Assembly: GCA_017444345.1 (NCBI GenBank)
Contig: JAFSWW010000080.1
Location: forward strand, 20,570-84,569
From: Synergistaceae bacterium
GTDB lineage: Bacteria > Synergistota > Synergistia > Synergistales > Aminobacteriaceae
Direction: 5' to 3'
Length of the DNA stretch: 64,000 nucleotides
Part shown: piece by piece, positions 36,510 through 50,555 of the stretch
Position numbering within the stretch: position 1 is the stretch's first letter
Layout of the letters: each line of letters starts with the position of its first letter
The notes under the pieces: model-generated
Told to the model about the DNA's origin: nothing
Database searches by the model: none
Seen by the model: the letters and a program-made list of their open reading frames with translations, nothing else
Made by a program: the position numbers and the translations under genes

Positions 36510-37362
36510 AGCAAGCAAAAATTTAGGGAGTCTGGCACTTGAGTCAATGTTAATAGAAGTGTCAGTAACTCCCAAGCCGGGATTAATTGACCGTAATAAT
36601 TCAGGAGCTCATAGAGATATGGGCTTCTTTACTTTTATGAAGAGTGCGGCGAGTCTTAATTCATGCTTTGAAGATTTTGCACAGGCTGGAGTCATTGCAG
36701 GTCAAGAAAAATTATTACCCGTTTTGCTATTTCCGGAACTGCGTAGAATCGGCATAATTGCAGAAAATGACATGTTTAGAGCGACTCAAGGCGTGAACAC
36801 TCACAAGGGAGAAATTTTTTCACTGGGAGTCTTAAGCGCGGCGGCCGGTTATTTATCGGGAATGAATGAAAATATAGACTCTGACTCGGTCATGAGCTTG
36901 GCCGGGAAGATTTGCGAGGGATTATGCGCGAGAGATTTTGCGGAATCAAGAAAGAAATCACGAAATGAACTCACTAAAGGGGAGAAAATTTTTATTGACT
37001 ATAATATAACAGGAATCAGGGGCGAGGCTGAGTCGGGCTATAAATCCGTGAAAGATATTTCATTGCCTGCACTAAGAAAATATTTATCAGAAAATTTCAC
37101 GCTTAATGACTCGTTAGCTAAGACACTAATACACTTAATAGCATTTGCACAAGACACTAATATAATTTCTCGTCATGATTTAGAGACAGCTAAAAACGTA
37201 ATGGATTCAGCACGGAAAATTTTAGAGAACGGCGCAGATTTAGACGATATATTTATGCTCGATCAGGAATTTATACAGCGCAATATAAGTCCGGGCGGTT
37301 CAGGTGATTTATTAGCAGTAACATATTTTATCTATGAACTTGATAAAAATTTATTGCTGTGA
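36496..37362 (+). CDS. citG: Triphosphoribosyl-dephospho-CoA synthase (CitG/MdcB family)
   Basis: It contains EVSVTPKPGLIDRNNSGAHRDM, NTHKG and GGSGDLLA. I prefer the Met at 36496, which overlaps the RND stop. Confidence 0.75.
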   Translation: MRTSKASKNLGSLALESMLIEVSVTPKPGLIDRNNSGAHRDMGFFTFMKSAASLNSCFEDFAQAGVIAGQEKLLPVLLFPELRRIGIIAENDMFRATQGVNTHKGEIFSLGVLSAAAGYLSGMNENIDSDSVMSLAGKICEGLCARDFAESRKKSRNELTKGEKIFIDYNITGIRGEAESGYKSVKDISLPALRKYLSENFTLNDSLAKTLIHLIAFAQDTNIISRHDLETAKNVMDSARKILENGADLDDIFMLDQEFIQRNISPGGSGDLLAVTYFIYELDKNLLL

Positions 37363-37860
37363 TTTAACTTGTGTGCAATATCCAGTAACAGTTAATACGT
37401 ATTGATCTGCGTTATATTCTGAAATATTTCTCTCTGCGTATGAAATTTTTGCGGGCGTGCATGATCCATCAGTGTAGAAATAAATAATTTCAGGTGAAAA
37501 TTGCCAGCCTTCACCGGTCGGAGAATTCCTTAAATTAACCTTGCGCCACTCTAAAACTTGCTTGTCATTATTATTAGCACTTCCGAGAAATGAGCTTATA
37601 CTGTCTTCGGGGATTTCTTTTTTCATGAGTGCTTCTACTTCAATCGCGCCGCGTTCTAAACCTTGTGATTTCTTGATAGAAAATTTTACAGGTGTCCCCG
37701 ATAATGACATGTCGCTGGCTTCCTCAAATGCACGTTGCAATACAGCTGAAGGGGGCTCGAAATAAAACGAGATTCGCGGGATGACCATTCCCGCGAGTGA
37801 GCCTGTAATCAGCAATACTATCATTATTTCAATGAGTGTAAATGCTTTCTTACTGCGCAA
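37351..37860 (-). CDS. Pseudopilin (GspH-like position) with a prepilin-type N-terminus
   Basis: The TTG at 37860 is preceded by GAGGA. The N-terminus is (M)RSKKAFTLIEIMIVLLITGSLAG, with Ala at -1. The longer 239-aa ORF overlaps gspG and is rejected. Confidence 0.65.
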   Translation of the reverse strand: MRSKKAFTLIEIMIVLLITGSLAGMVIPRISFYFEPPSAVLQRAFEEASDMSLSGTPVKFSIKKSQGLERGAIEVEALMKKEIPEDSISSFLGSANNNDKQVLEWRKVNLRNSPTGEGWQFSPEIIYFYTDGSCTPAKISYAERNISEYNADQYVLTVTGYCTQVKSQQ

Positions 37861-37864
37861 AATT

Positions 37865-38302
37865 TTAGTCCTCGTTCGAAATATCTGCGTTTGTGCCTTC
37901 TCCGCCCTCTTCACCGTCCGGGCCGTAGCTGACAATTGAGATTCTGCCGTTCTGATTGCGATAAACGTAGGGATTCCCCCATGGATCTTCAGGGACTTTT
38001 TTGAGATAGCCGCCCTCTTGATAGTGTTTAGGAACTGGCGATGTTGTAGGAGCTGTAACAAGTGCCTCAAGTCCCTGCTGTGTTGAAGGGTAAAATCCGT
38101 TGTGCATTCTGTACATTTCTAGAGCGTCTTCTATACTCTTTATTTGAGTTCGTGCTGTTGTGCGCTGTGCTTCTGCGACTTGAGGGCCGATTCTGGGAAC
38201 TACTAGGGCAGCCAGCAAACCTAGAATAACGACAACTACCATAATTTCAATCAGGGTAAAACCTGAACGGCGGCGCAATAAATATTTTTTCTTTTCTTGC
38301 AT
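37865..38302 (-). CDS. gspG: Major pseudopilin GspG
   Basis: It contains RRRSGFTLIEIMVVVVILGLLAALVVPRI, a GspG core (IKSIEDALEMYRMHNGFYPSTQQGLEALV, DPWGNPYVY) and a Ca-loop-like GPDGEEGG. AGGAGG precedes the ATG at 38302. Confidence 0.85.
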   Translation of the reverse strand: MQEKKKYLLRRRSGFTLIEIMVVVVILGLLAALVVPRIGPQVAEAQRTTARTQIKSIEDALEMYRMHNGFYPSTQQGLEALVTAPTTSPVPKHYQEGGYLKKVPEDPWGNPYVYRNQNGRISIVSYGPDGEEGGEGTNADISNED

Positions 38303-38327: not shown

Positions 38328-39482
38328 TTATTTAACAATTCCGGCTAAGTCAAACACCGGCGTTAATATTGCCAAAACTATAAATCCGACTGAGACTCCA
38401 AGCGTTAAGACCATTATGGGCTCCATCAAAGTCGAAAGTTTTTCCATTCGGGACTGGGCAATTTCCCGGCACTGTTCAGAGACATTTGTTAATGAACCTG
38501 CTAAATCTCCGCCCATTTCGCCGACTCTTACTACTGCGACTGTTTCTTCCTGCATTCCTATTTTTTCGAGTGCCTTGTCAAATCTATGTCCGGCCTTGAC
38601 CATTTCGGCAGCATCGAGCCACCTTTGAGAGCTTGAGTCCATTGATGAGGCCATTCTCAAAGCCTGAACGAGCGGAATTCCCGATCTTAACAGCGTGCTT
38701 ATATGCGACATAACAAGAGCCAGCGTTAATTGTCCCCTGATTCCCTTCATGAAAGGCATATTAAATTTTCGCCCTGTCTTGCGCATCCATAATAATAATA
38801 TCCCGAATGCTAATAAAAGCCATAGCCCATAATTTGAGAGAAATTCAGACATTCCGATTAATATACGAGTAGGAAGGGGCAAAGTCTGATTCATGTCCTC
38901 AAAAAGTTCTGAAATCTTAGGCACAACATCTGTAAGCATGAAAGCAACGACTCCGACACCTACAACGGCCATAACTATTGGATATGTCATTGCACCGCGA
39001 ATCTTGCGCCGTAAATCGTCCTCTAATTTGAACTCGTCAGCAGCTTCATTTAATACTGAAATAAGAGTCCCGCTCTGTTCACCTGACTCAGCGACCCGCC
39101 AAAGACTTTCACGAAATGCCCCGCACTCTGATAAAGCCGTGTGAAATTTCCTGCCGCCTTCAACTTCTGCTAAAATTTTTTCCATTACGGGCTTCATTAC
39201 TTTATCGCGGGCTTGTTTTGACATGATTCTTAACGAGTCAGCAAGCGGCAAACCTGATTTTAAATACGAGGCTAGACTCCTGCAAAAGAATATATGCTGT
39301 TCGAGCGGCAATAATTTAATCTTGACTTTTCCGCCCTTTTTCTCTTCAGTCAATTTTACGTCAACAACAACAATTCCCCGTTCTGTGAGCCTGTCAACTG
39401 CCTGAATAGATGAGCCTGCTTCAATAGTACCCTTTGTGCTCTTGCCTTTAGAGTCATATCCTGAATAACTGAAATAAGGCAT
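38328..39482 (-). CDS. gspF: Inner-membrane platform protein GspF/PilC family
   Basis: It has two T2SSF repeats (FCRSLASYLKSGLPLADSL / HISTLLRSGIPLVQAL) and 3 TM segments. Confidence 0.85.
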   Translation of the reverse strand: MPYFSYSGYDSKGKSTKGTIEAGSSIQAVDRLTERGIVVVDVKLTEEKKGGKVKIKLLPLEQHIFFCRSLASYLKSGLPLADSLRIMSKQARDKVMKPVMEKILAEVEGGRKFHTALSECGAFRESLWRVAESGEQSGTLISVLNEAADEFKLEDDLRRKIRGAMTYPIVMAVVGVGVVAFMLTDVVPKISELFEDMNQTLPLPTRILIGMSEFLSNYGLWLLLAFGILLLWMRKTGRKFNMPFMKGIRGQLTLALVMSHISTLLRSGIPLVQALRMASSMDSSSQRWLDAAEMVKAGHRFDKALEKIGMQEETVAVVRVGEMGGDLAGSLTNVSEQCREIAQSRMEKLSTLMEPIMVLTLGVSVGFIVLAILTPVFDLAGIVK

Positions 39483-39485
39483 AAT

Positions 39486-40988
39486 TTAATCTTCTCCTGC
39501 GACTCTTGCTAATTCGTCCGGTGAAGTCAGCCCCGATTGAACAGCAGAGAGTCCAATTTCCCATAAAGTTTTGAATCCGCTTTTACGTGCAATCTCGCGC
39601 AATTTTGAGGCCGGAGCACCTCCGACAAATGCCTCTTGAATCTCTTCATTAATTACAAATTGTTCATAGAGTCCGACTCGTCCCCTGTAGCCTGTATTAT
39701 GACACTCTGAACAGCCGACCGGTTCAAATGCCCGTGTGAGTCCCTGTTTTGCCATCATGGCGGGGGGTGTTATTTCTCGTCTGCAATGAGGGCATAATCT
39801 GCGCGCGAGTCTTTGTGCTACAGTTCCTATCATACAGCTTGCTGCCAAATAAGGCTCTATACCCATATCCACGAGTCTTATAATTGCGCTGATTGAGTCA
39901 TTCGTGTGCAGAGTCGATAACACTAAATGCCCGGTTAATGAAGCCTGTACGCCTATATGAGCCGTCTCAAAGTCTCTCATTTCTCCGATCATTACTATAT
40001 CAGGATCTTGACGCAAAATTGAACGCAAAGCAGCAGCAAAAGTAACTCCGGCTTTCTCGTTTACTTGAATTTGAGCGACTCCGGGTAAAGCATACTCTAC
40101 GGGATCTTCAACTGTAATAATATTTACTTCAGGACGCGCCAAAGCCTGCAAGATAGCATATAAACTCGTTGACTTTCCTGAACCTGTAGGGCCTGTAAAT
40201 AAAATCATTCCGTGAGGTCTGTGTATAAGTTCGTCCATAATTGTGCGCTCGCGTTCTTCCATGCCTAAATCTTCAAGAGTCATGAGTCCATGTCCCTTAT
40301 CAAGTAAACGCATTGCGATTCTTTCTCCGTATTGAGTCGGCACAAGTCCAACACGAACATCAACAGCTCTATCTCCTACAGTGATTCCTATTCTGCCGTC
40401 CTGAGGTGCCATGTGTTCGGCTATATCCATTCTTGACATGACTTTAATACGGCTTATTAGGGGAGCTTGATTTGAACGCGGTAATCTCAATCTATCCTGC
40501 AAAACTCCGTCAATCCTGAAACGCACTAATACTTCATCTTCGTAGGGCTCAACGTGAATATCAGTCGCGCGCTGTCTCAATGCATCAACGAACAGGCCAT
40601 TAACAAGCCTTATAACGGGAACATCAACCGAGTCGCTTAATACGTCCTCGCGTGATAAATCATCTAAATCGTCAATTCCTTCGATATTTTTTGCGGCCTC
40701 GTCAGCTGCTACACTTCTTAAATCATATAAAGTGTGTAATAAATCGCCGATTTCCTTCTCGTCGCGAATCTCTAAATCAATCGGGAATCCCAAGGCAGTC
40801 CCTAAAATTTGAGCTTTAGGCCAAGCGTCAAAATCTACAGCACCGACAATTAATACACCGTCCTGAATTCTTAACGGGACAATTTTTGCCTGCCTTAGAA
40901 CATCGAGTCCCATTCCGTCGGGTAAGAGACTCGATACTTCTTTTGCGTCAGGAAGAGGGGGGAGCGCATTAACTTCACTATCAGGCAT
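39486..40988 (-). CDS. gspE: Secretion ATPase GspE/PilB family
   Basis: It has an N-terminal T2SSE_N-like domain, Walker A GPTGSGKST, Asp/His boxes and a tetracysteine motif (CPHC...CSEC). Confidence 0.9.
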   Translation of the reverse strand: MPDSEVNALPPLPDAKEVSSLLPDGMGLDVLRQAKIVPLRIQDGVLIVGAVDFDAWPKAQILGTALGFPIDLEIRDEKEIGDLLHTLYDLRSVAADEAAKNIEGIDDLDDLSREDVLSDSVDVPVIRLVNGLFVDALRQRATDIHVEPYEDEVLVRFRIDGVLQDRLRLPRSNQAPLISRIKVMSRMDIAEHMAPQDGRIGITVGDRAVDVRVGLVPTQYGERIAMRLLDKGHGLMTLEDLGMEERERTIMDELIHRPHGMILFTGPTGSGKSTSLYAILQALARPEVNIITVEDPVEYALPGVAQIQVNEKAGVTFAAALRSILRQDPDIVMIGEMRDFETAHIGVQASLTGHLVLSTLHTNDSISAIIRLVDMGIEPYLAASCMIGTVAQRLARRLCPHCRREITPPAMMAKQGLTRAFEPVGCSECHNTGYRGRVGLYEQFVINEEIQEAFVGGAPASKLREIARKSGFKTLWEIGLSAVQSGLTSPDELARVAGED

Positions 40989-40991: not shown

Positions 40992-43136
40992 TTACTTCCT
41001 CCTGAGACTGCGCTGATACATATCTCTAAATCTTGCGTCAATATCAGCTTCTACGGGACTGGCTCCGATATTCGTTAAATCCGGTCTTGCGTTGTCAGGC
41101 ATTAATTTATTCACGTCGAAATTCATATCAGGCGACACAAAGCCCCTCGCAAATCCGGCAGCTCTCATTGTTGCGTGTCTCATTTCTTCAGGCGATTCGA
41201 TAATTTGAGGCGTTAAGAAAATTACAAAGTCAACTTTTTCCTTTTCCTTTGACAATTTCTGAAAGAGTCCGCCTATTAACGGAATATAAGACAAGCCGGG
41301 GACTTTACGCTTCATTGATTTTTCCGTTTCCTTGATCATGCCGCCTAAAATTATAGTCTCACCGTCTGCAACTACAACAGAAGTAATAACTTCACGCTTT
41401 GAAGTAGTCGGAGTAGTAACTCCTGAAGCAGTCATAACATCTTCAGTAGTCTGCTTTATATCCATTGCGACAAGATTCCCGCTCCTGATATGAGGTGTAA
41501 CTGTGAGAGTCAAGCCCGTATCTTTATAGTCATAATTATTCTGAATAGAATTCGGATTCGTTAAATCAGAAGTAGACCCCTTCATAACGGGAATAACATT
41601 ACCGACTTTGAACGTGCTTTCTTTGTTATCAGTACACATTAAGCGAGGCACTGACAATACATTAACTGCGTCATAACGCTTTAATAATTCAATCGTGGCA
41701 TACATTAATCCCATAGGCTGATAATTTGTAACTGTATAAGTAGATCCATTGCGCTCAAGTAATTCCTCACGCTTTGACAAATCATTGAACCATGTCATGA
41801 ACTGTGAAGGCACTGACCCCTCGCCGAGCGACATATTACCGCCCAGCAATAAATTATCCCACATTTGACCGCCTAAGATTGACCAGTCTATACCGTTGCG
41901 ATCTAAATTTGTTACGTTGATTTCAGCAATAAAGCCTCGTAATAAAATCTGTCTAGGCTGTATATCAATAGCGTCAAGAATCGGGACAAGTGCGTCATAT
42001 TGTCTCTGAGTCGCAGCAAAAATTAAACTGTTAGTAGCAACATCAGGAACTACAGCAGCTGTGAATTTTGCCGAGTCAGCTCCCAGCATTGTATTTGTTG
42101 AAGCTAAAACTTTCCCGACTTGTTCGGCGGCGGCGGTTGCGTCAATATTCTTTAACTTGTAAATGTGAAAATCGCCTATTTTCGGGTCAACGTCTAAATC
42201 ACTAATTATGCGGGCGGCCTTATCGATTGCGCTTGAACTCCCGACAACTACAACTTTTTTGCTTGGAACGTCGGCAATGGCATTTAATCCCTGAAGAGGG
42301 CCATTTGATTGAGCGATTGCGTTTAATTGTGCTGCTATAGTACCCGGATCTCCGTTATTGATTTCAAATGTCTTGCTTAATCTTGCACTTTGAGGCGTGT
42401 CCATTTTGCGGATTAACTCAACGCCTTTATTAACATCAATAGCCCGGCCCTGTAATAAAATATCGCGCCCGTTACCAACTGCCAAAGCTACGAGACTCGA
42501 TCCAAATGCTTGTTGAATAGCCGGTAATAAACTTTCAATTGTTACATAATCAATCGGGACTATATATGTTACAGTTTCTTCACCGGGTCCGGGGCCTGTT
42601 TTGCTCCTGAAGACATTAGGCGACGGACTATTACCGCCCTGACGAACTATTGAATAACTGCCCATGTTTTGCAGCGAAAAATTATACATCTGCAAAGTTG
42701 ATAACATGACTTCGCGGGCTTCTTTTATAGTAACAGGATGAGGCGAAATTATAGTTATTTTAGAATTTATATTTGGAGGCACAATTATATTTTCTTGCAA
42801 GACTTCAGACATAAAGCGCATAAATCTGACTAAATCGAAATCCTTAAAATTAAATTGTACGAGTCCCGCTCGTCTCATAGCTGCGGCAGAATCCATTAAT
42901 GCTTGTTCCTGCTCTGGAGTCATTGCGTCGCCTTGTCCTGATTGCGGTTGAGCTGCCGGCTGATTTTGTGCAGGTCTCGGCGGTGCAGGTTGTGCAGGCG
43001 GTGCAGGCGTATTATTATTTCTAGGTGTTGTTCTGCTAATTCTCCGTGTAGCTGACTCCACGCTAGAACTTGATAAATCACTTAATAAAGCTATACTCAA
43101 TAATATAATCAAAATTTTTATAAATCTTACTCTCAA
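40992..43136 (-). CDS. gspD: Secretin GspD family
   Basis: It has a signal peptide, a Pro/Gln/Ala-rich linker, N0/N1-like repeats and a C-terminal secretin domain (VPGLSYIPLIGGLFQ). Confidence 0.9.
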   Translation of the reverse strand: MRVRFIKILIILLSIALLSDLSSSSVESATRRISRTTPRNNNTPAPPAQPAPPRPAQNQPAAQPQSGQGDAMTPEQEQALMDSAAAMRRAGLVQFNFKDFDLVRFMRFMSEVLQENIIVPPNINSKITIISPHPVTIKEAREVMLSTLQMYNFSLQNMGSYSIVRQGGNSPSPNVFRSKTGPGPGEETVTYIVPIDYVTIESLLPAIQQAFGSSLVALAVGNGRDILLQGRAIDVNKGVELIRKMDTPQSARLSKTFEINNGDPGTIAAQLNAIAQSNGPLQGLNAIADVPSKKVVVVGSSSAIDKAARIISDLDVDPKIGDFHIYKLKNIDATAAAEQVGKVLASTNTMLGADSAKFTAAVVPDVATNSLIFAATQRQYDALVPILDAIDIQPRQILLRGFIAEINVTNLDRNGIDWSILGGQMWDNLLLGGNMSLGEGSVPSQFMTWFNDLSKREELLERNGSTYTVTNYQPMGLMYATIELLKRYDAVNVLSVPRLMCTDNKESTFKVGNVIPVMKGSTSDLTNPNSIQNNYDYKDTGLTLTVTPHIRSGNLVAMDIKQTTEDVMTASGVTTPTTSKREVITSVVVADGETIILGGMIKETEKSMKRKVPGLSYIPLIGGLFQKLSKEKEKVDFVIFLTPQIIESPEEMRHATMRAAGFARGFVSPDMNFDVNKLMPDNARPDLTNIGASPVEADIDARFRDMYQRSLRRK

Positions 43137-43523: not shown

Positions 43524-44504
43524 TTATTTCACGACATAACGCAAGGCCGTTGACTGCCCTTTACGAGTAACTTCAACGTCAAATCTCTCACTGTTCATGA
43601 GTGAATTAATAGAATTTGCTATATCGCCCATATTTGTGAACGGGATTCCATTAACGGACTTGATAATATCACCCTTTTGAACTCCTAAACGCTTTAATAT
43701 GCTTTCATTCTGGATCCATTGAACTTCGAGTCCTCCCGCGCTTTCATTAGGTCTGATTCTGATTCGCTTTAACTCGTCAAAAGGATTTTGCACGAGCTGA
43801 CTCACTAATTCGCTTGAGACTTCGCCGTCCTGTTTACCCGGTTCAGCAGCTACGATATTTCCGAGCTTGGCAGGTTCGGGCGTGTTTCTCTTAGGAGCGG
43901 GTGCAGGTTTAGGAGCTTCTGTTTTGACCGGGCCGAATACCATTTTTTTAGTAACTCGTTTCTTGCCCTGTGTGAAAGTTGCTTCACGATAACTGACACT
44001 CGATAATTTCCAGCGTTCTATTTCCTTCCCGATAAGAATTAAATTTAGATTTCCATTTTTCTCGACCCATGCGCTGATTCCCGGAAAAGTCCCCCGCAAA
44101 ATTACATCGTCTAAAGTAGTTGGAGGCTCTGGCGGTGTTACTTCTTTAGAGACCGGGGCGGGCTCATTTGATACGACTTTGAGCGGCGAAATCTGAAAAG
44201 GGTTTGACGAAATAAAAGCAGTGAATCCCCTGTCTTGATTCGATAAATTGCTGTCTTGAGCTTGACTCCCGGTAACTGCGCTGTCAACGACTCCGGAATT
44301 CCCGGCGAGAAAATCAAGCCCATAACCGAGTCCGACTCCAGCTAAACGGCCGGCAGCGAGTCCCACTAAAAGCGGCAATACTAACAGCCAAGTTTGATAA
44401 ATCTTCCCGCCCGACTCTTTCTGCGATGACTCCTTCTCCTGTTTATTTGCTTTAATACGCCTTACACGTGAAGACTGCAAAGCGTCTCTTAACCTGTCTA
44501 ACAT
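43524..44504 (-). CDS. gspC: GspC-like protein: TM anchor, Pro-rich linker and C-terminal PDZ domain
   Basis: It has a single TM (WLLVLPLLVGLAAG), a PAPAPKRNTPEP linker and a PDZ-like segment (LGVQKGDIIKSVNGIPFTNMGDI). Confidence 0.55.
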   Translation of the reverse strand: MLDRLRDALQSSRVRRIKANKQEKESSQKESGGKIYQTWLLVLPLLVGLAAGRLAGVGLGYGLDFLAGNSGVVDSAVTGSQAQDSNLSNQDRGFTAFISSNPFQISPLKVVSNEPAPVSKEVTPPEPPTTLDDVILRGTFPGISAWVEKNGNLNLILIGKEIERWKLSSVSYREATFTQGKKRVTKKMVFGPVKTEAPKPAPAPKRNTPEPAKLGNIVAAEPGKQDGEVSSELVSQLVQNPFDELKRIRIRPNESAGGLEVQWIQNESILKRLGVQKGDIIKSVNGIPFTNMGDIANSINSLMNSERFDVEVTRKGQSTALRYVVK

Positions 44505-44511: not shown

Positions 44512-45090
44512 TTATTTCCTCCTTAAGTACCAGCGATCGCCCTCTTGAACTAAAGGCAAGAAATTACGCAGCATATTCAAATTATTTGCAAATTCTTCGG
44601 GAACATTTAATTGCGCGTCAGATCGTCCAATTCTCATATTTGCGGGTGAAAAAGTTATATAGCCGTTGACTGCAAAATCTCCGTTAGTTCGTAATTGTTC
44701 CAGCAAGATTTCATTTCGCCCGGCTGTCAGCAAAAAACGTCCATCCCCAAAATTATAATTTGTCCCGAGTCTCAAATTTCCGCCTTTAAACGAAATATCA
44801 CAAACCGGAGCAAGGCTTAATATACTCGCTAAAATTCTCGGCCGTATAGTAATCGAACTCAAAGAAAAATTTACAGTCCCATTCAGGGCCAAATTACTAA
44901 CTGTGAAACCGTCCGACTCGCCTGATACATCAGAAAAATTTAAACGCATTCCACGAGCATTTAACTGAGAATGAGCTATTGACATTGCAAACTTGCCCAC
45001 TTCTCTATATGGCAGGAAAATCCATAATGCATAAACGAATCCCGCCAGCAATAATAAAATTTTTATGATAGTTAATAAAGATTTCTTCAT
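44512..45090 (-). CDS. Bitopic protein in the GspN-like position
   Basis: It has an N-terminal TM (IIKILLLLAGFVYALWIF) and a periplasmic domain of about 160 aa. The assignment rests on size, topology and context only. Confidence 0.35.
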   Translation of the reverse strand: MKKSLLTIIKILLLLAGFVYALWIFLPYREVGKFAMSIAHSQLNARGMRLNFSDVSGESDGFTVSNLALNGTVNFSLSSITIRPRILASILSLAPVCDISFKGGNLRLGTNYNFGDGRFLLTAGRNEILLEQLRTNGDFAVNGYITFSPANMRIGRSDAQLNVPEEFANNLNMLRNFLPLVQEGDRWYLRRK

Positions 45091-45093: not shown

Positions 45094-45603
45094 TTAATTC
45101 ATCGGCCCTATTATAGCTGAAATAGTAAACAATCTCTCTTGACCTGCAGGAAGTGCCCTAAGTTCAAGCGCAATAAATCTGACTCCGCGAGCTGCTAAAA
45201 GCTGTTGAAGTTCGGCAAATTCTTCGGCATAAAGTCTATTAATTTCGACTGATTGATTACGGCCGTCTGGAGTGATTCTATTTACACGGCTGCCGAGTTC
45301 CATTCTTTCAGAGACTTGCGCGAAAATTGTCGGGACATCAACATTTGAAGGAGTATTATTTTTCTTGTTATCTTTAGGAGCGATTGATTTATACTCGTCT
45401 GAAAGAGTCAAAAGAGTCCTTAATCGTGATTGCTGAGCTCGTAAATTTGTCTGACTCTGTGCTGCCCAGCCGTTAATAACAAGAACTCCGACCCATATAG
45501 CAAGAGTCAAGACGAGAATAACAATAAATTTTATGCTTCCTGCTGCCTCACCGCGTGCGATATTTTTTGCGTTATTAAAAACTTGTTCGAGATTCAATGC
45601 CAT
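45094..45603 (-). CDS. Bitopic protein in the GspM/PilO-like position
   Basis: It has a short cytoplasmic N-terminus, one TM (FIVILVLTLAIWVGVLVI) and a periplasmic domain of about 120 aa. The assignment rests on context only. Confidence 0.4.
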   Translation of the reverse strand: MALNLEQVFNNAKNIARGEAAGSIKFIVILVLTLAIWVGVLVINGWAAQSQTNLRAQQSRLRTLLTLSDEYKSIAPKDNKKNNTPSNVDVPTIFAQVSERMELGSRVNRITPDGRNQSVEINRLYAEEFAELQQLLAARGVRFIALELRALPAGQERLFTISAIIGPMN

Positions 45604-45612: not shown

Positions 45613-46908
45613 TTACCACCTTACGCGCATATCAAATCTAAATCCTATACCTGATACAAATTGAGTGTTATCGACTTGTGCGAGCCTTGCCCGGCCTTCC
45701 CATGCCTTCCTGAAATTCAAAACTGTAGTCATATCCGGTGCTGTTCCTGTGCAGTCGATTCCCTCGGAATTATAGCGAATTATATCAAGCCTTATATCCA
45801 TGCTTTGAGTCTGCGTAAAAATTTCGCCTATATCAGCAAGCACTTCTTCCAAAGGGTGAGCGGCTTGGCCTGTGTTAGTCAACGAGTCAATCTTATCGCG
45901 CGCAAGTGTTACAGGATTTGAGATTCGCCCGGTATGTGAAGGATCAAAATTTTGACGATAAATTTTTTCGCTGCGTGTTCTTAATTCTTGAACTTGTCCC
46001 TGAAGTTGATTCCAGCGTAAATAACTCGCTGATATGGCCGCGACTCCAAGCACTAAAAGCCAAATTGCCGCACGAGTCATAAATTTTATATTGCGCTCTA
46101 GGTCAATAGCTCCCTCAAGTGCCGAACGGGATAAATTTATATTATTCAGCCACGGACAAATTTTTAAACTCTCGCTAATCATGCCGCGAAATTCTTTATT
46201 AGACTCCTCGTCGTCCTCGTCATTGTTGCCTGATACGTTAATAATAAAATTCCCGCCGCGTTCTAATTCACGAGTTTTGCAGTAATTATCATACCAAGCT
46301 ATTTCTTTATTTTCCGAGTCCTCGCCTGTAACTTTCCGCCAGCGGTATAAAACGGGTTTATTATTCTGCCATAAAATCGAGCAAATATTTTCTTCGTCTA
46401 TATATGCAGTTATCCCCGTGCCGTTGTATTCTTTCAAGCGAGAAATAAAAGGCAATGGAGCGGGCCAAATTTTATTACTTGCGCCGGACTCATATGAGAA
46501 ACTAGGCAAATTTAACTCTTCGGGCGAAACATACCAAACAATTCCATTAACTGAACGCCCGGACTTTGCGATAACGACGGGGAATAATTCGAGCTTCCCG
46601 GCCGCTGAATATGGCATAACTTGAAGTCTTAAGGCCTCGCGAATCTTAGTATTACCGGAAAAAGGGAACGCAAAATCTTCAAGTGAAAGCGACCTCATAG
46701 GGACAAGAGTAATAAAATTTTTCGCTGATTCTTGACTTGATGCGATAATCTTTATAACTTTGCGGCTCTCTTGATACTCTTCGCCGTTCTCGTCATTTGT
46801 ACCCTTCTCGTGAATCTCTAGAATCCTGCGAAATTCTGTATCAGTGAAATCTTCTCCCGTTTTCTTCCTGAATAAATTTTCTATGTTCATATTTAAATCT
46901 AGCTTCAT
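45613..46908 (-). CDS. GspL-like (or fused PilM/PilN-like) assembly protein
   Basis: It has a cytoplasmic domain of about 285 aa, one TM (AAIWLLVLGVAAISASYL) and a periplasmic domain of about 130 aa. The ATG at 46908 follows GGGAGGA and overlaps the gspK stop (ATGA). Confidence 0.45.
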   Translation of the reverse strand: MKLDLNMNIENLFRKKTGEDFTDTEFRRILEIHEKGTNDENGEEYQESRKVIKIIASSQESAKNFITLVPMRSLSLEDFAFPFSGNTKIREALRLQVMPYSAAGKLELFPVVIAKSGRSVNGIVWYVSPEELNLPSFSYESGASNKIWPAPLPFISRLKEYNGTGITAYIDEENICSILWQNNKPVLYRWRKVTGEDSENKEIAWYDNYCKTRELERGGNFIINVSGNNDEDDEESNKEFRGMISESLKICPWLNNINLSRSALEGAIDLERNIKFMTRAAIWLLVLGVAAISASYLRWNQLQGQVQELRTRSEKIYRQNFDPSHTGRISNPVTLARDKIDSLTNTGQAAHPLEEVLADIGEIFTQTQSMDIRLDIIRYNSEGIDCTGTAPDMTTVLNFRKAWEGRARLAQVDNTQFVSGIGFRFDMRVRW

Positions 46909-47873
46909 GATTCCTCCCATTTGATTATCTGCTTAGAGTCTCTATCTAATATTATATTAAATGATTTGCCCCCGTTGCCTGTATCGTCAAGACATTCAAT
47001 TTTCAGCAAAAAATAACGGCTCTTGAATCCGATTAAATTTGTTAATTTGTTGCTGCTTTTAGCTGAAAATCCGGGAAGTTTCCGCAAATCCGCCATATCT
47101 TTAATAGGTGTCTCTGCTCTAGTGCGTTCGATTCTTTCTGCGACTCCTCCTGTATCAAGACCGGGCATTAACTCCATGACATAAACGGGAGCGACATTTA
47201 TATTAATTTTGCCGTCGCTGTAAACTGTGCAGTAATCAACAAATCCCTTTTTGCCTTCTGAACCGTATAATAATTCTTGGGGAATATCGCGGCTCAACAT
47301 CATTAATTCTGACGGGTCATAGGGTGCTCTATTAATGAATTCTTCACGTTCAGAACTTCCGACTCTGGGTTTGTCGTTCCTGTCAATAAAGTCAAGCACT
47401 ACATTTGAATTATTTACATTGCCGATTTTGCGCCATAATTCTTCCCATAATTCCGAGATTTCGCGCCTCAAAGTATTACCATCGGGCAAGAATAAATTTC
47501 TAAGGGGGATTTTATCATCTAAGGGGACAATTTGAGCGACCCAGATTCCTAAATCATTTCCGAGCGGCAAAATAAAAGGCTGGTACCATCTTTGATCGGC
47601 GGGGCTGTCATATTTAAATTGTGCGGCGACTTGAGTCAATGCTTTCATTACTACAATTGCGAGAACATCGGCCATGCTTCTGCGTTCAATTGCGCGTAAT
47701 TCTTGGCCTGTAGTCCTGACTTGAGCACGAACGAACCAGCTAAAAGCCGTAGCACATGAAATTAATAACACTCCCAGCATTAAGACACTCACGAGGACAA
47801 AGCCGGATTTTCTTGATTTATTTTTACGGGAACACGATAACGCTTTCGAGTTCGTCAAGATTTTCGCTTTCAT
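46905..47873 (-). CDS. gspK: Minor pseudopilin GspK
   Basis: It has a prepilin-like N-terminus without Glu5 (RKSGFVLVSVLMLGVLL) and a T2SSK-like HhH region (ININVAPVYVMELMPGLD...IKDMADLRKLPGF). Confidence 0.65.
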   Translation of the reverse strand: MKAKILTNSKALSCSRKNKSRKSGFVLVSVLMLGVLLISCATAFSWFVRAQVRTTGQELRAIERRSMADVLAIVVMKALTQVAAQFKYDSPADQRWYQPFILPLGNDLGIWVAQIVPLDDKIPLRNLFLPDGNTLRREISELWEELWRKIGNVNNSNVVLDFIDRNDKPRVGSSEREEFINRAPYDPSELMMLSRDIPQELLYGSEGKKGFVDYCTVYSDGKININVAPVYVMELMPGLDTGGVAERIERTRAETPIKDMADLRKLPGFSAKSSNKLTNLIGFKSRYFLLKIECLDDTGNGGKSFNIILDRDSKQIIKWEES

Positions 47874-48474
47874 TATTATTTACTCCGTTATTAATTATTT
47901 GCGTATTATCTAAATTTTTGCGTGAAATTTTTATATATATTCCATGAGGAAGAGGCCCCGCAAAATCTTTCTTGTTATCATCGGCGCGTGAATTTGTAGG
48001 TACTTCGACTTTAAATGCGCTTACATAGGGCAGAACGAGCTGACCGTCTTCACCTCTTAATTTTTCGTGATTTATAGAATTCGGAGCCTTCCCGGGAATG
48101 ATCCATCTATATAGACCGGGGATTATATTATTATTATTAATTCCGCCCTCGTTGAGCTTATAAACGAGAGTCCCGGCCGGCAGCCCCTGAACAGACGGAG
48201 CAGAACTCATAATCATTAAAATATCGTCATCTCTATTTCCCATTGATTCATGATCTATAATAGTTATCACATTTGCGGCCAGTCTCATGGCAGAATTTAG
48301 ATCACGCGTTATAAAATTCATTGTGCGCTGTAATGCCGAAACATCCGAGTATCTTTCTTGAGTCTCTACTACTCTTCTTACTGTAAAGACTACGGGAGCA
48401 AGCGCAAGAGTGGCCAGCATTCCCGTAAGCATAACAGCAATTAATATTTCTAAGAGTGTAAAACCTTTTCTCAT
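47824..48474 (-). CDS. Pseudopilin (GspJ-like size)
   Basis: It begins MRKGFTLLEILIAVMLTGMLATLALAP and is 216 aa long. Its start overlaps the stop of the upstream Wzy_C gene. Confidence 0.7.
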   Translation of the reverse strand: MRKGFTLLEILIAVMLTGMLATLALAPVVFTVRRVVETQERYSDVSALQRTMNFITRDLNSAMRLAANVITIIDHESMGNRDDDILMIMSSAPSVQGLPAGTLVYKLNEGGINNNNIIPGLYRWIIPGKAPNSINHEKLRGEDGQLVLPYVSAFKVEVPTNSRADDNKKDFAGPLPHGIYIKISRKNLDNTQIINNGVNNNESENLDELESVIVFP

Positions 48475-50555
48475 TTGCTAGTATTATTATTTCGCGCTTC
48501 AGGTGCCGGACCGTTCGCAATAACAAGAGCGTCAAATATATTTCCTTTTTCGTCTCTGTGACGCTGCCTCACTAAATGATAAGTACCGGGCTTGAAATAG
48601 CTTACCAGCTCGATTAATGCATTCTGAATCTGATATTTTTGCGCATAAGTCAATAACCTGTTAATATCTTCTGAGTGAGGCTCCCTGTGAAAATGCTGCC
48701 ATAAAGTATTAAAGCCTCGTGCAATTAATTCGCGGTCGTTAGTCTGTTCACCTAACTGTAAATAATGATACCCGATATTTCTCTGTGCTTCCTCGTATAC
48801 AATCGGATGTTTTGCGGCCTCATTGAGTAAATTAATTTGCAAATTTGGATTCTGAGTCGATAAGGCCTGACGTAATACATAATTCCCGTAAATCCCATCT
48901 GAAATATATAACACTCCGGCAATTGATGAGGCTATACAAATCAGCCCGATTATATTCATGAATGCTTTTGACTTGAAAGCAGGAAATTTCAATTTATCAC
49001 CGAAAAATTCACGATTAGACAAGGCAAATGCTAAAGTTATCCATACCATATTCTCTATCCTGTGAAATGGACGGGTGAAAATCGCACAAAAAGTTATCAA
49101 TGACGTTAAACCGAGTGCCCAGACAGCATTAATATTTATTTCCTTGCGCTTGATTAAGCCCCTGACAGCCGGAACGAACCACGCAAGATACATAATAATT
49201 AATATTATCCCCCCGATATAGCCGCCTTCACAGAACCATTGCAAAAACTCATTATGCGCCCAGTGGGTATATTGCCATACGTACCAGTCATTATTAAATA
49301 TTTTGAAGCCCTCGCGCTGTGCCTCCATATAGTGCCATTTATATTGACCAGTGCCGACTCCTAATGGGTGCTCTCTGAACATTGCGTAAGAAGTTGACCA
49401 GATCCCCCGCCTGTTGCCTATATTTTCCGCGTGTTCAATTATATCCGCAGTCTTCTCAATAAGACCGCCTGCACGGCTTGAACTCGTAGAGACCCAGAAG
49501 ACAGCGAGCAAGACAATCATAACCGCCCCGAATCTGATTACATAATTACGGTTAAATTTCCATGCCGCTATAATTAACATGACAAGAAAGCCGCTCACAA
49601 GTGCAAGAAATCCCGATCTGCTCGTCGAATTCAGCAAGCCCCAGAAATTTATACCTGCTAAGAATAATAAAATCACGCTGTAATAAACTCTCTTGTCATT
49701 GCCGAGATAAAACGCGAGCGCAAAAGTTCCCAGCATGAATAATCCGGCCAAGATCGCAAGTAAAATATTTCCATGTTCAACCGCAAATTTTAAGCATATA
49801 ACGCCCAGTGCAAGACTTACAGCAGGGGAATAAATTTTTTTGCCGTGTTCGTCCGAGTCATTTTTCCATGCGTCATAGACAAATAAATATATAGCTCCTA
49901 AAGCTGCTACGGCTGTCCATAATCCGAACATGTTTTGCTGTGCAGTGTTGCCGATATAATTTCCGGGAGTCGGCAAGATTATGCTGCTAAATTGCTTGAG
50001 TGATTCAAAAATTGTCCCGTCAAGAAATGAGAAATTATTTAGATCCCTAATCTGAAGCTCTGCATATAACACGTTCAAAGCCGCGTTTAAATTCCCTAAT
50101 AATAATACATAACGCAAGCCGTTATCAGGAAATGACGAGACGCTTATAACATAGAATGCCCAGACAGCAAGAAAGCATACCATCTCAAGCGCGAATCCAG
50201 TCGGAGAAAATATTTTTACCCATAAAGGCTGTAATGCAGAATAAGCAAGCAAAACCGCCCATATAATCGCAAATATATCAATCTTGAATCTAATTTTATC
50301 CTTGCCATAAATCAATAATCTCAAGCCGGCAACAAATACAGCTATTGCAATGGGAACTCCTGTAACTGTCCATTTTATAACGTGCAGAGTGTCAGCAAAT
50401 TTTATACCGGAATATACTAGATTAGGCAGTGCCAGCGATATAAACCATAGGGGCAGCAATATCCAAACAGGCACTAGGGGAACTTGAATATATTTATCGG
50501 GTATCTTATTAATTTTTGCCCTATCAAGTGAAAGCAGCTTTTCTTTTTTCTTCAT
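48471..50555 (-). CDS. Wzy_C (O-antigen ligase / PglL-TfpO-like) polytopic protein with a TPR-like C-terminal domain
   Basis: It has at least 10 TM segments and the Wzy_C signature region (SRSGFLALVSGF...YTHWAHNEFLQWFCEGGYIGG). A soluble helical C-terminus of about 150 aa follows. Confidence 0.7.
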   Translation of the reverse strand: MKKKEKLLSLDRAKINKIPDKYIQVPLVPVWILLPLWFISLALPNLVYSGIKFADTLHVIKWTVTGVPIAIAVFVAGLRLLIYGKDKIRFKIDIFAIIWAVLLAYSALQPLWVKIFSPTGFALEMVCFLAVWAFYVISVSSFPDNGLRYVLLLGNLNAALNVLYAELQIRDLNNFSFLDGTIFESLKQFSSIILPTPGNYIGNTAQQNMFGLWTAVAALGAIYLFVYDAWKNDSDEHGKKIYSPAVSLALGVICLKFAVEHGNILLAILAGLFMLGTFALAFYLGNDKRVYYSVILLFLAGINFWGLLNSTSRSGFLALVSGFLVMLIIAAWKFNRNYVIRFGAVMIVLLAVFWVSTSSSRAGGLIEKTADIIEHAENIGNRRGIWSTSYAMFREHPLGVGTGQYKWHYMEAQREGFKIFNNDWYVWQYTHWAHNEFLQWFCEGGYIGGIILIIMYLAWFVPAVRGLIKRKEININAVWALGLTSLITFCAIFTRPFHRIENMVWITLAFALSNREFFGDKLKFPAFKSKAFMNIIGLICIASSIAGVLYISDGIYGNYVLRQALSTQNPNLQINLLNEAAKHPIVYEEAQRNIGYHYLQLGEQTNDRELIARGFNTLWQHFHREPHSEDINRLLTYAQKYQIQNALIELVSYFKPGTYHLVRQRHRDEKGNIFDALVIANGPAPEARNNNTSK

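What the first reader, a model, noticed from the sequence alone, without database searches (positions are those of the whole stretch)
37351..50555. Complete T2SS-like secretion/pseudopilus locus with a scrambled gene order and no prepilin peptidase in view
Thirteen co-directional minus-strand genes are packed with gaps of 0-50 nt or ATGA-type overlaps. In transcription order they are:
- a Wzy_C/PglL-like protein
- a pseudopilin
- GspK
- an L-like protein
- an M-like protein
- an N-like protein
- a GspC-like protein with a PDZ domain
- a small pseudopilin
- secretin GspD
- ATPase GspE
- platform GspF
- GspG
- a last pseudopilin

Several signatures point to a T2SS rather than a type IV pilus. 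These are the GspG core (DPWGNPYVY, GPDGEEGG), a GspK-type minor pilin lacking Glu5, and a PDZ-bearing GspC-like protein.

The order is inverted relative to the canonical gspC-D-E-F-G-H-I-J-K-L-M-N. The minor pilins and the L/M/N/C module come before the secretin, a pseudopilin sits between C and D, and only five pilin-like genes are present. No GspO/PilD peptidase and no PilT-like retraction ATPase lie in the 64 kb. One pseudopilin has Ala rather than Gly at -1. The secretin carries a Pro/Gln/Ala-rich spacer of about 60 aa after its signal peptide.

The rest of the window looks non-proteobacterial (AT-rich, anaerobe-type genes). A divergent T2SS in such a lineage and its cargo would be worth characterising.
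Basis: partly seen in the sequence, partly recalled or inferred. Interest (0 to 1): 0.75.

Follow-up and report, generated by a model that had tools for sequence, protein, structure and literature searches.

The report
Synergistaceae type II secretion gene cluster
This is a complete, intact type II protein-secretion gene cluster from a rumen Synergistaceae bacterium. Its unusual gene order is the standard layout for this bacterial group and was described in 2023, so it is a real but largely ordinary find.

Summary
Thirteen tightly packed minus-strand genes (37351-50555) encode a Wzy_C-family membrane protein followed by pseudopilin(J-like)-GspK-L-M-N-C-pseudopilin(I-like)-GspD-E-F-G-pseudopilin(H-like). 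No prepilin peptidase, PilT or PilMNOP lies in the 64 kb.

Family models place it as a type II secretion system (T2SS), not a type IV pilus. GspD, GspG, GspL and GspC pass curated NCBIfam cut-offs. GspL and GspC pass models built specifically for Synergistales (NF041617, NF041616).

The "scrambled" order is not peculiar to this window. Dethiosulfovibrio peptidovorans DSM 11002 has the same 13 genes in the same order (25-67% identity). So do every other Synergistota locus I fetched and 31 metagenome contigs, with minor variations.

Haft (bioRxiv 2023) already described this "divergent subclass of T2SS" in Synergistales and linked it by phylogenetic profiling to Synerg-CTERM surface proteins and the MrtS protease. 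NCBIfam and Pfam carry dedicated models. Five pseudopilins is the canonical number, not a deficit.

The leading Wzy_C gene is a frequent neighbour but not an obligate part. In 29 of 60 metagenome loci its homologue has no T2SS cassette downstream, and Aminivibrio-type cassettes lack it.

Verdict: a new member of a known, computationally described but experimentally untouched kind. Interest is low to moderate.

The parts
48471..50555 (-). Wzy_C-family (O-antigen-ligase-like) polytopic membrane protein, 694 aa. It has a helical C-terminal extension after the last TM segment. It is the first gene of the block and overlaps the next gene by 4 nt. It is a frequent neighbour of the cassette but not an obligate part.
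   Evidence: Pfam PF04932 at 61 bits (cut-off 31.7) and no other Pfam or NCBIfam family in any of 7 orthologues. It is 37% identical to the D. peptidovorans orthologue, with conserved motifs in alignment A2. Of 60 metagenome loci, 31 have the T2SS downstream and 29 do not.
47824..48474 (-). Minor pseudopilin, 216 aa, GspJ-like by size and position (MRKG|FTLLEIL).
   Evidence: N_methyl / TIGR02532 motif. Its positional orthologue in D. peptidovorans is 33% identical. The globular part has no detectable sequence match in the PDB. The J assignment is inferred.
46905..47873 (-). GspK minor pseudopilin, 322 aa, lacking Glu5.
   Evidence: The only NCBIfam hit is NF037980 T2SS_GspK, E=6.6e-17, 62 bits (below the cut-off of 130), covering 23-294 of the protein. 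An HHH_3 hit falls in the inserted domain. Leader is G|FVLVS.
45613..46920 (-). GspL, inner-membrane platform protein, 435 aa.
   Evidence: NF041617 T2SS_L_SYNERG at 224 bits, above the cut-off of 150. GspL_C Pfam hit.
45094..45603 (-). GspM, 169 aa.
   Evidence: The only NCBIfam hit is NF041618 T2SS_M_SYNERG at 62 bits, below the cut-off of 120. Weak Pfam T2SSM hit. Orthologues hit PF28037 T2SS_GspM_synerg.
44512..45090 (-). GspN, 192 aa.
   Evidence: The best NCBIfam hit is NF041619 T2SS_N_SYNERG at 121 bits, below the cut-off of 140. Orthologues hit PF28042.
43524..44504 (-). GspC with a C-terminal PDZ domain, 326 aa.
   Evidence: NF041616 T2SS_C_SYNERG at 210.7 bits, above the cut-off of 200. 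The next hit is GspC_delta at 80.8 bits. PDZ_6 at residues 263-300.
43190..43522 (-). Small minor pseudopilin, 110 aa, GspI-like by size (MRRRG|FTLMEV).
   Evidence: N_methyl / TIGR02532. Its positional orthologue in D. peptidovorans is 33% identical. The I assignment is inferred (one search was uninformative).
40992..43136 (-). Secretin GspD, 714 aa: signal peptide, lineage-specific P/Q/A-rich spacer, N0, N1-N3 and secretin domain.
   Evidence: TIGR02517 at 360.6 bits (cut-off 351.35), against PilQ at 153 bits. Pfam N0, Secretin_N and Secretin domains. The best PDB matches are T2SS GspD chains at E=1e-54 over residues 96-653, with PilQ at 1e-21.
39486..40988 (-). GspE assembly ATPase, 500 aa, with a CxxC...CxxC zinc motif.
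   Evidence: TIGR02533 GspE at 566.9 bits (below the cut-off of 630) against PilB at 518 bits. T2SSE Pfam hit at 438 bits. It is 67% identical to D. peptidovorans GspE.
38328..39482 (-). GspF inner-membrane platform protein, 384 aa.
   Evidence: The best NCBIfam hit is TIGR02120 GspF at 260.7 bits (below the cut-off of 424), ahead of PilC at 188.7 bits. T2SSF matched in two stretches.
37865..38302 (-). GspG major pseudopilin, 145 aa from ATG 38302.
   Evidence: TIGR01710 at 177.9 bits (cut-off 88.85). PF08334 T2SSG at 126.6 bits.
37351..37860 (-). Last minor pseudopilin, 169 aa from TTG 37860, GspH-like by position. Ala at -1 (MRSKKA|FTLIEIM).
   Evidence: N_methyl motif. Start codon reasoned from the sequence and from orthologues. 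Its positional orthologue in D. peptidovorans is 25% identical. The H assignment is inferred (one search was uninformative).

Best explanation
The locus is a complete, intact type II secretion system of the Synergistales subclass, in a rumen Synergistaceae genome.

**How it most likely works** (inferred from established T2SS biology, not shown here)
- Substrates cross the inner membrane by Sec or Tat and fold in the periplasm.
- The GspE hexamer docks on the GspL-GspM(-GspN)-GspF platform.
- GspE powers assembly of a short GspG pseudopilus.
- The pseudopilus is capped by the GspK, I-like and J-like tip. The H-like subunit acts as adaptor.
- GspC (PDZ domain) bridges the platform to the N0 domain of the GspD secretin.
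- The pseudopilus pushes cargo through the secretin.
- All five pseudopilins carry class-III leaders (G or A | F-T/V-L-x-E/S). They need a prepilin peptidase that is encoded elsewhere in the genome.

**Most likely cargo, by analogy**
- Surface proteins carrying the Synerg-CTERM sorting signal, processed by the CPBP protease MrtS. Soluble hydrolases may also be cargo.
- This step rests on Haft's phylogenetic profiling in other Synergistales and was not verifiable for this genome.

**The leading Wzy_C gene**
- It is probably co-transcribed with the cassette.
- It is best read as an envelope-glycan ligase or polymerase with its own function, one that often sits next to the cassette.
For: **Family models**
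- GspD, GspG, GspL (Synergistales-specific NF041617) and GspC (NF041616) pass curated cut-offs.
- GspM, N, K, E and F all have T2SS models as best hits.
- The secretin aligns end to end with solved T2SS GspD structures at E=1e-54, against 1e-21 for PilQ.

**Organism**
- Nearest relatives of GspL are Synergistaceae/Synergistales MAGs from goat and deer rumen.
- The GspL family comprises only 84 clusters at 50% identity among 1.84 billion proteins. Every named member in the sample is Synergistaceae or Synergistales.

**Conserved order**
- All 13 genes have their positional orthologue as best hit in the D. peptidovorans DSM 11002 cassette. That cassette is in the same order with different flanks.
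- The same order is seen in L001, L003, L006-L008 and L011-L015 and in 31 metagenome loci, with minor variations.

**Prior description**
- Haft 2023 describes this 'divergent subclass of T2SS operon', built NF041616-NF041619, and links it to Synerg-CTERM and MrtS.
- T2SS dependence of the analogous MYXO-CTERM sorting, and the role of myxosortase, are supported experimentally in M. xanthus (PMC11980579).

**Integrity**
- All ORFs are intact and tightly coupled, with gaps of -50 to +53 nt.
Against: - GspE, F, K, M and N fall below the curated NCBIfam cut-offs, so the rumen clade is a divergent member.
- On PDB sequence scores GspE is as close to PilB as to EpsE.
- No prepilin peptidase, MrtS-like CPBP protease or Synerg-CTERM-like protein is in the 64 kb or in any fetched locus. 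The cargo link is therefore untested for this lineage.
- No experimental work exists on any Synergistota T2SS.
- The H/I/J assignments rest on size and position only.
Confidence: 0.85

Rival explanations
1. The Wzy_C-family protein is a dedicated accessory of this T2SS. It would be a periplasm-facing ligase that glycosylates, or otherwise attaches an undecaprenyl-linked moiety to, the pseudopilins or the secreted or surface-anchored cargo. This would resemble the way TfpO/PglL enzymes modify type IV pilins.
For: - It is the first gene of the block in the window, D. peptidovorans, Synergistes sp., L008, L013, L014, the rumen relatives and 31 metagenome loci, with short junctions where I checked them.
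- The Wzy_C+T2SS block stays together in at least three different upstream contexts: DnaB/ParB, TrkH-SpdSyn, and others.
- L014 carries a second Wzy_C gene inside a glycosyltransferase cluster. The T2SS-linked gene may therefore be a distinct paralogue.
- It is as conserved as GspC and GspK: 37% identity to D. peptidovorans.
- It carries an extra C-terminal TM segment plus a helical domain.
Against: - In 29 of 60 metagenome loci with enough downstream sequence, the same Wzy_C subfamily gene has no T2SS cassette after it.
- In at least 13 of those 29 loci it is followed directly by GSIII on the opposite strand. Where upstream sequence is present, DnaB (in one locus ParB) precedes it. These are the same flanks that bracket Wzy_C+T2SS in L008 and L013.
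- Aminivibrio-type cassettes (L012, L015) have an LPG_synthase_C-domain gene in its place.
- No PglL-specific Pfam family was hit, only the generic Wzy_C domain.
- No acceptor motif was identified.
Confidence: 0.1
2. The machine is really a type IV pilus or competence-type filament system that has been mislabelled as a T2SS.
For: - The GspE PDB scores are marginally higher for Geobacter PilB (392.7 bits) than for EpsE (385 bits).
- GspE and GspF are below the T2SS equivalog cut-offs.
Against: - The PilB match covers more residues (28-497) than the truncated EpsE structures (113-499).
- On NCBIfam, GspE scores 567 bits against 518 for PilB, and GspF scores 261 against 189 for PilC.
- GspG, GspD, GspC and GspL pass T2SS cut-offs.
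- The PDZ-bearing GspC, GspK, and GspM and GspN are T2SS-specific.
- There are no PilM/N/O/P, PilT or major type IV pilin genes.
Confidence: 0.03
3. The system secretes ordinary soluble exoenzymes only, such as peptidases suited to the amino-acid-fermenting lifestyle of Synergistota. On this reading the Synerg-CTERM connection does not apply to this rumen clade.
For: - GspM and GspN of the window fall below the Synergistales-specific cut-offs, so the clade is divergent from Haft's seed genomes.
- No Synerg-CTERM-like tail or CPBP protease was seen in 64 kb.
- Haft's profile was based on only seven genomes.
Against: - A 64-kb window is a small sample of a genome.
- The cassette is orthologous gene for gene to the D. 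peptidovorans cassette from which the Synerg-CTERM link was derived.
Confidence: 0.3

Closest known systems
Synergistales subclass of T2SS (Haft 2023, bioRxiv 10.1101/2023.06.07.544157; NCBIfam NF041616-NF041619; Pfam PF28037 and PF28042). The reference cassette is in Dethiosulfovibrio peptidovorans DSM 11002, where GspL is Dpep_0155.
   Same: It has the same 13 genes in the same order, and every protein is the best hit of its positional counterpart at 25-67% identity. GspL and GspC pass the subclass-specific HMMs. The taxon, Synergistales, is also the same.
   Different: - The host is a rumen Synergistaceae clade in which GspM and GspN score below the curated cut-offs.
- The flanks differ: TrkA-TrkH-MFS/spermidine synthase lies upstream, rather than DnaB-ParB.
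- Wzy_C has an insertion of about 50 aa, probably two extra TM segments.
- The secretin has a long P/Q/A spacer.
- Co-occurrence with Synerg-CTERM and MrtS was not verified.
Canonical proteobacterial T2SS (Gsp/Eps/Xcp/Pul; gspC-D-E-F-G-H-I-J-K-L-M-N(-O))
   Same: The component set is the same: C, D, E, F, G, four minor pseudopilins including a Glu5-less GspK, and L, M and N. The secretin has the N0-N3 plus secretin architecture. GspC carries a PDZ domain. GspE has the tetracysteine motif.
   Different: - The order is J-K-L-M-N-C-I-D-E-F-G-H.
- C, L, M, N and the minor pseudopilins are so divergent that the generic models score weakly or not at all.
- No gspO is in the cluster.
- A Wzy_C gene leads the block.
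Myxococcota T2SS with MYXO-CTERM/myxosortase sorting (PMC11980579)
   Same: GspC's second-best model is the delta-proteobacterial GspC (NF041515, 80.8 bits). The proposed functional logic is also shared: a Cys-containing C-terminal sorting signal, a CPBP protease, and then T2SS-dependent surface display.
   Different: The phylum and the sorting signal (Synerg-CTERM) are different. There is no experimental evidence in Synergistota.
Type IVa pilus systems (PilB/C/M/N/O/P/Q/T)
   Same: The homologous core is shared: ATPase, platform protein, secretin and class-III signal peptides.
   Different: There are no PilM/N/O/P, PilT or long major pilin genes. All shared components score higher on T2SS models.

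Membership tests
Type II secretion system (generic) | Secretin of the GspD type (N0, N1-N3 and secretin domain) | tested here: met
   TIGR02517 at 360.6 bits, at or above the cut-off of 351.35. Pfam N0, Secretin_N and Secretin domains. Full-length match to solved GspD chains.
Type II secretion system (generic) | Major pseudopilin GspG | tested here: met
   TIGR01710 at 177.9 bits, at or above the cut-off of 88.85. PF08334 at 126.6 bits.
Type II secretion system (generic) | GspE ATPase and GspF platform of the T2SS clade | tested here: inconclusive
   The best models are GspE (567 bits against PilB at 518) and GspF (261 bits against PilC at 189). Both are below the equivalog cut-offs of 630 and 424. 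No phylogeny was run.
Type II secretion system (generic) | T2SS-specific assembly platform GspC (PDZ/HR), GspL and GspM | tested here: met
   GspC NF041616 at 210.7 bits (cut-off 200) and GspL NF041617 at 224 bits (cut-off 150) both pass. For GspM the T2SS model is the only hit but scores 62 bits, below the cut-off of 120.
Type II secretion system (generic) | Minor pseudopilin set including a Glu5-less GspK | tested here: met
   GspK NF037980 at E=6.6e-17 (below its cut-off), with leader G|FVLVS. Three further class-III pseudopilins are present. The H/I/J identities are inferred from size and position only.
Type II secretion system (generic) | Prepilin peptidase (GspO/PilD) available | tested here: not met
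   It is absent from the 64-kb window and from the +/-10 kb around the cassette in relatives. The rest of the genome could not be searched. In many T2SSs the peptidase is encoded elsewhere, so this does not exclude membership.
Type II secretion system (generic) | Absence of T4P-specific genes (PilM/N/O/P, PilT) in the cluster | tested here: met
   Pfam scans of 54 of the 57 listed window ORFs of 120 aa or more found none.
Synergistales-subclass T2SS (Haft 2023) | Hits to the subclass-specific HMMs NF041616-NF041619 (GspC, L, M, N) | tested here: inconclusive
   C and L pass. M (62 bits against 120) and N (121 bits against 140) are best hits below their cut-offs.
Synergistales-subclass T2SS (Haft 2023) | Cassette collinear with the D. 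peptidovorans reference | tested here: met
   The order is identical across all 13 genes, and every protein is the best hit of its positional counterpart.
Synergistales-subclass T2SS (Haft 2023) | Host belongs to Synergistales/Synergistota | tested here: met
   The closest loci are Synergistaceae/Synergistales MAGs. Every named member in the sampled GspL clusters is Synergistaceae or Synergistales.
Synergistales-subclass T2SS (Haft 2023) | Co-occurrence with Synerg-CTERM (TIGR04564) proteins and the MrtS protease (NF040589) | not testable with these tools
   Only 64 kb of the genome is available, and none is in the window. This rests on a regex for the C-terminal signal and on the absence of any CPBP hit in the Pfam scans.
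PglL/TfpO-type protein O-oligosaccharyltransferase (for the Wzy_C gene) | Wzy_C catalytic domain | tested here: met
   PF04932 was hit in all 7 orthologues, with a best E-value of 4e-19.
PglL/TfpO-type protein O-oligosaccharyltransferase (for the Wzy_C gene) | PglL-specific domains or models, or a demonstrated protein acceptor | tested here: not met
   No Pfam family other than Wzy_C and no NCBIfam family was hit at E<=0.1. There was no PDB sequence match. The single-sequence AF2 model was too poor to compare. Acceptor specificity cannot be tested in silico here.

The most novel reading that the evidence does not exclude
The conserved Wzy_C-family gene at the head of the cassette is a T2SS-coupled modifying enzyme. 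In Aminivibrio-type cassettes the LPG_synthase_C-domain gene that replaces it would play the same role. The enzyme would decorate pseudopilins or Synerg-CTERM cargo with an undecaprenyl-linked glycan, or with another envelope moiety, before export. This would add a previously unrecognised 'modification slot' to a T2SS operon.
Probability: 0.1. Interest if true: 0.6.

Novelty: new member of a known kind. Interest (0 to 1): 0.25.

Why it matters
**Why the locus matters little on its own**
- It adds one more rumen Synergistaceae example to a T2SS subclass that is already catalogued.

**Its modest value**
- It shows that the J-K-L-M-N-C-I-D-E-F-G-H order is fixed across Synergistota. GspL identity across these loci falls to about 31% against D. 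peptidovorans, and flanks differ.
- The cassette behaves as a present-or-absent block between Wzy_C and GSIII in many lineages.
- The rumen clade is divergent enough that GspM and GspN fall below the curated annotation cut-offs. Many MAG records still label GspL 'hypothetical protein'.

**The open gap**
- No Synergistota T2SS has been studied experimentally.
- Its cargo is predicted to be Synerg-CTERM surface proteins. That cargo, and the role of the neighbouring Wzy_C gene, remain open but low-surprise questions.

Tried and rejected
**1. AlphaFold2 on the Wzy_C protein**
- Only a single sequence could be used, because homologues taken from loci are not accepted by the tool.
- The model had mean pLDDT 47 and pTM 0.31. 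It was unusable for fold search, apart from a helical segment at about residues 555-650. No fold search was run.

**2. PDB sequence and profile searches**
- Wzy_C gave no hits.
- The J-, I- and H-like pseudopilins matched only the N-terminal helix. H/I/J could not be assigned by homology.

**3. Consensus promoter and terminator scan of 36.8-56.2 kb**
- Counts were at or near shuffle expectation (promoter-like 62 found against 50.3 ± 6.1; terminator-like 18 against 16.1 ± 3.6) and gave no clear operon boundaries.

**4. Exact look-up of the window's GspL in the assembly index**
- It is not on record, so the source contig and sample were not identified.

**5. Rfam and tRNA scans of the window**
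- Nothing was found.

**6. Regex for Synerg-CTERM-like C-termini in the window and loci L001-L012**
- None was found. This is a crude test, and the TIGR04564 HMM was not run on all ORFs.

**7. Supplementary tables of Haft 2023**
- They are not held, so I could not see which nine cassette genes scored in the profiling.

**8. Hypothesis that the extra ORF between gspE and gspF in L001 is the missing prepilin peptidase**
- Rejected. It is a polysaccharide deacetylase (PF01522).

**9. Hypothesis that Wzy_C is an obligate T2SS component**
- Weakened by the metagenome test.

**10. Literature searches for a Synergistetes T2SS**
- Searches of the TXSScan and type IV filament literature returned nothing.

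Full report
**1. Observation**

The region 37351-50555 carries 13 co-directional minus-strand ORFs. Junctions run from -50 to +53 nt and include 4-nt ATGA overlaps.

Two start codons need correcting:
- GspG most plausibly starts at ATG 38302.
- The last pseudopilin starts at TTG 37860 (MRSKKA|FTLIEIM). This is 4 nt after the gspG stop and downstream of a GAGGA. The L001 orthologue starts at the equivalent position with the leader MRKVSA|F.

Pfam scans covered 54 of the 57 listed ORFs of 120 aa or more in the 64 kb. The three not scanned are short antisense ORFs nested inside larger genes. The scans show no Peptidase_A24, no second T2SSE/PilT ATPase, no PilM/N/O/P and no CPBP protease.

**2. 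Identity of the parts**

| Protein | Best model and score | Curated cut-off |
|---|---|---|
| GspD | TIGR02517, 360.6 bits (PilQ 153) | 351.35, passed |
| GspG | TIGR01710, 177.9 bits | 88.85, passed |
| GspL | NF041617 T2SS_L_SYNERG, 224 bits | 150, passed |
| GspC | NF041616 T2SS_C_SYNERG, 210.7 bits | 200, passed |
| GspM | NF041618, 62 bits | 120, not reached |
| GspN | NF041619, 121 bits | 140, not reached |
| GspK | NF037980, 62 bits | 130, not reached |
| GspE | TIGR02533, 567 bits (PilB 518) | 630, not reached |
| GspF | TIGR02120, 261 bits (PilC 189) | 424, not reached |

- The proteins that miss their cut-offs all still have the T2SS model as best hit.
- The secretin aligns over N0 to the secretin domain with solved T2SS GspD chains at E=1e-54, against 1e-21 for PilQ.
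- The three remaining pilin-like proteins have class-III leaders, but their globular parts match nothing in the PDB by sequence.
- Their sizes (216, 110 and 169 aa) and positions suggest J, I and H.
- Together with G and K that makes five pseudopilins. This is the canonical number, so 'only five' is not a deficit.

**3. Organism**

- The closest GspL relatives in genomes are Synergistaceae/Synergistales MAGs from goat rumen and red deer, at 59-91% identity.
- The best 120 database hits are 53-93% identical. Where named, they are Synergistaceae 'hypothetical protein'.
- An exhaustive search of 1.84 billion cluster representatives finds only 84 clusters. Every named member in the sample is Synergistaceae or Synergistales.
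- GC content is 34-44%.

**4. Already described**

- It was found by partial phylogenetic profiling of the Synerg-CTERM sorting signal (TIGR04564) in Dethiosulfovibrio peptidovorans DSM 11002.
- He built NF041616-NF041619 for its GspC, L, M and N, and proposed the CPBP protease MrtS as the sorting enzyme.
- Newer Pfam releases carry PF28037 (T2SS_GspM_synerg) and PF28042 (T2SS_GspN_synerg).
- Recent NCBI records name the protein 'type II secretion system protein GspL'.
- The analogous MYXO-CTERM/myxosortase route has experimental support in M. xanthus (PMC11980579).
- I found no experimental paper on a Synergistota T2SS.

**5. Gene order**

D. peptidovorans DSM 11002 (L010; GspL is Dpep_0155) has these genes in this order: Wzy_C(585 aa)-pilin(201)-K(308)-L(387)-M(159)-N(200)-C(314)-pilin(111)-D(659)-E(500)-F(383)-G(139)-pilin(133).

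Each window protein's best hit in that cassette is its positional counterpart:

| Protein | Identity to D. peptidovorans |
|---|---|
| GspE | 67% |
| GspG | 59% |
| GspF | 46% |
| GspD | 44% |
| Wzy_C | 37% |
| GspC | 37% |
| GspK | 35% |
| J-like | 33% |
| I-like | 33% |
| GspL | 31% |
| GspN | 29% |
| GspM | 26% |
| H-like | 25% |

The same order recurs in these loci:
- L001 and L003, rumen relatives
- L006/L007
- L008
- L011, Synergistes sp.
- L012
- L013-L015
- 31 metagenome loci from rumen, termite gut, digesters and sediment

Variations on the shared order:
- An extra gene may sit between D and E or between E and F. It is ParA-like in L008, a polysaccharide deacetylase in L001, and SnoaL-like in L006/L007.
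- L006/L007 have two GspC paralogues.
- L006/L007, L011 and L014 have no gspG or H-like gene after gspF.

The 'scrambled' order is therefore the fixed order of the subclass.

**6. The Wzy_C gene**

Neither the preprint text nor the family libraries treat it as part of the system. The terms O-antigen, ligase and Wzy do not occur in the preprint. Only the generic PF04932 domain hits in all 7 orthologues, with no NCBIfam family.

Evidence for a functional link:
- It heads the block in the window and in L001, L003, L006/L007, L008, L010, L011, L013 and L014. Junctions are short in the loci I checked, and upstream flanks differ.
- L014 carries a second Wzy_C gene in a glycosyltransferase cluster.

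Evidence against a functional link comes from a scan of metagenome contigs with the Wzy_C alignment, which returned 80 loci:
- Of 60 loci with at least 2.5 kb downstream, 31 carry the cassette and 29 carry no T2SS gene there.
- In at least 13 of the 29, GSIII on the opposite strand follows Wzy_C directly (L056, L057, L069, L071, L075, L077, L079-L083, L085, L089, L090). Where upstream sequence is present, DnaB precedes it (in L083, ParB).
- These are the flanks that bracket Wzy_C plus the T2SS in L008 and L013.
- Aminivibrio-type cassettes (L012, L015) have an LPG_synthase_C-domain gene in its place.

The simplest reading is that Wzy_C is an envelope-glycan enzyme with its own function. The T2SS cassette is present or absent as a block next to it. 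A dedicated role remains possible, at about 10%.

**7. Mechanism**

This section is inferred from established T2SS biology.
- GspE, docked on GspL, GspM, GspN and GspF, polymerises GspG.
- The pseudopilus is capped by K with the I-like and J-like proteins, with the H-like protein as adaptor.
- GspC (PDZ domain) links the platform to GspD N0, and folded periplasmic cargo is expelled through the secretin.
- The leaders (G or A at -1, F at +1, E at +5 except in GspK) require a prepilin peptidase encoded elsewhere.
- Ala at -1 recurs in several orthologous pseudopilins, so it is a tolerated variant in this subclass.
- Cargo is probably Synerg-CTERM proteins after MrtS cleavage, on Haft's inference. 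Soluble hydrolases may also be cargo.
- Neither could be checked. The window and the loci checked (L001-L012) contain no Synerg-CTERM-like tail, and no CPBP protease was found in the window.

**8. Minor features**

- The P/Q/A-rich spacer of the secretin is lineage-specific. It is longest in the window, shorter and rich in N, T and Q in other rumen relatives, and absent elsewhere.
- A short helix (EQNLIEAAxxMRxSGxVQFNF) preceding N0 is conserved across the subclass.
- The fused MFS/spermidine-synthase gene lies 28 nt upstream. With TrkH and TrkA beyond it, this is conserved synteny in the rumen clade only.

**9. Verdict**

This is a real, intact T2SS and the T2SS call is correct. It is a new member of a computationally known, curated subclass whose gene order is standard for the phylum. 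Interest is 0.25. The novelty class is new member of a known kind.

Noticed in passing
L056, L057, L069, L071, L075, L077, L079-L083, L085, L089, L090 (metagenome loci), compared with L008 and L013: In many Synergistota-like contigs the arrangement is DUF2232-L9-DnaB-Wzy_C followed directly by GSIII on the opposite strand. In L008 and L013 the 12-gene T2SS cassette sits exactly between Wzy_C and GSIII. The cassette therefore behaves as a clean presence/absence block at a fixed chromosomal site.
   Followed up: partly
L012 7598-8473; L015 7606-8481: In Aminivibrio-type cassettes the gene ahead of the J-like pseudopilin is a 291-aa protein with an LPG_synthase_C (PF09924) domain, not Wzy_C. A different envelope-modifying enzyme family occupies the same slot.
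   Followed up: no
L001 17487-18311; L008 15686-16468; L006/L007 18409-18852: There is a variable 'guest gene' slot around gspE. It holds a secreted polysaccharide deacetylase (PF01522) between E and F in L001. In L008 it holds a ParA/MinD-like ATPase between D and E. In L006/L007 it holds a SnoaL_4-like protein between E and F. The window has no such insert.
   Followed up: partly
L006/L007 12308-14377; L006/L007, L011 and L014 downstream of gspF: Some relatives carry two tandem PDZ-bearing GspC paralogues. Several cassettes end at gspF with no gspG or H-like pseudopilin following, so the major pseudopilin must be encoded elsewhere in those genomes.
   Followed up: no
window 50584-55172: A fused MFS/spermidine-synthase gene (NF037959, 239 bits) ends 28 nt upstream of the Wzy_C gene and is preceded by trkH and trkA. 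This upstream synteny is conserved in rumen-clade relatives but not in other Synergistota.
   Followed up: partly
window 19187-20442: A small nucleotidyltransferase (Polbeta/NTP_transf_2) ORF is followed by an ORF whose N-terminus is a HEPN domain and whose C-terminal part is a nitroreductase. This looks like an MNT-HEPN toxin-antitoxin pair. Either it is fused to a nitroreductase, or the long TTG-started ORF has merged two genes.
   Followed up: no
window 33387-36509: An AcrB-type RND transporter ends in an acidic tail (SDSDDDDDDDEDE). It is preceded by a HlyD-family membrane-fusion gene (32259-33380), and no outer-membrane factor gene is adjacent.
   Followed up: no
window 31282-32022: A glycosyltransferase family 6 (PF03414, the blood-group-transferase-like family) homologue of 246 aa stands alone between a radical-SAM gene and the RND pump genes.
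   Followed up: no
L013 13609-15505: In this NCBI MAG the secretin is called only as a 181-aa C-terminal fragment, with about 1.3 kb uncalled before it. This could be a frameshift, an assembly problem or a pseudogene. I did not inspect it.
   Followed up: no
window 10491-11324: A 277-aa ORF has an N-terminal P-loop (GPAGTGKSH) and a weak Asp23-like C-terminus, below the Pfam cut-offs. It lies in a cell-envelope and isoprenoid gene run (murA, uppS, cdsA, dxr). Its function is unclear.
   Followed up: no
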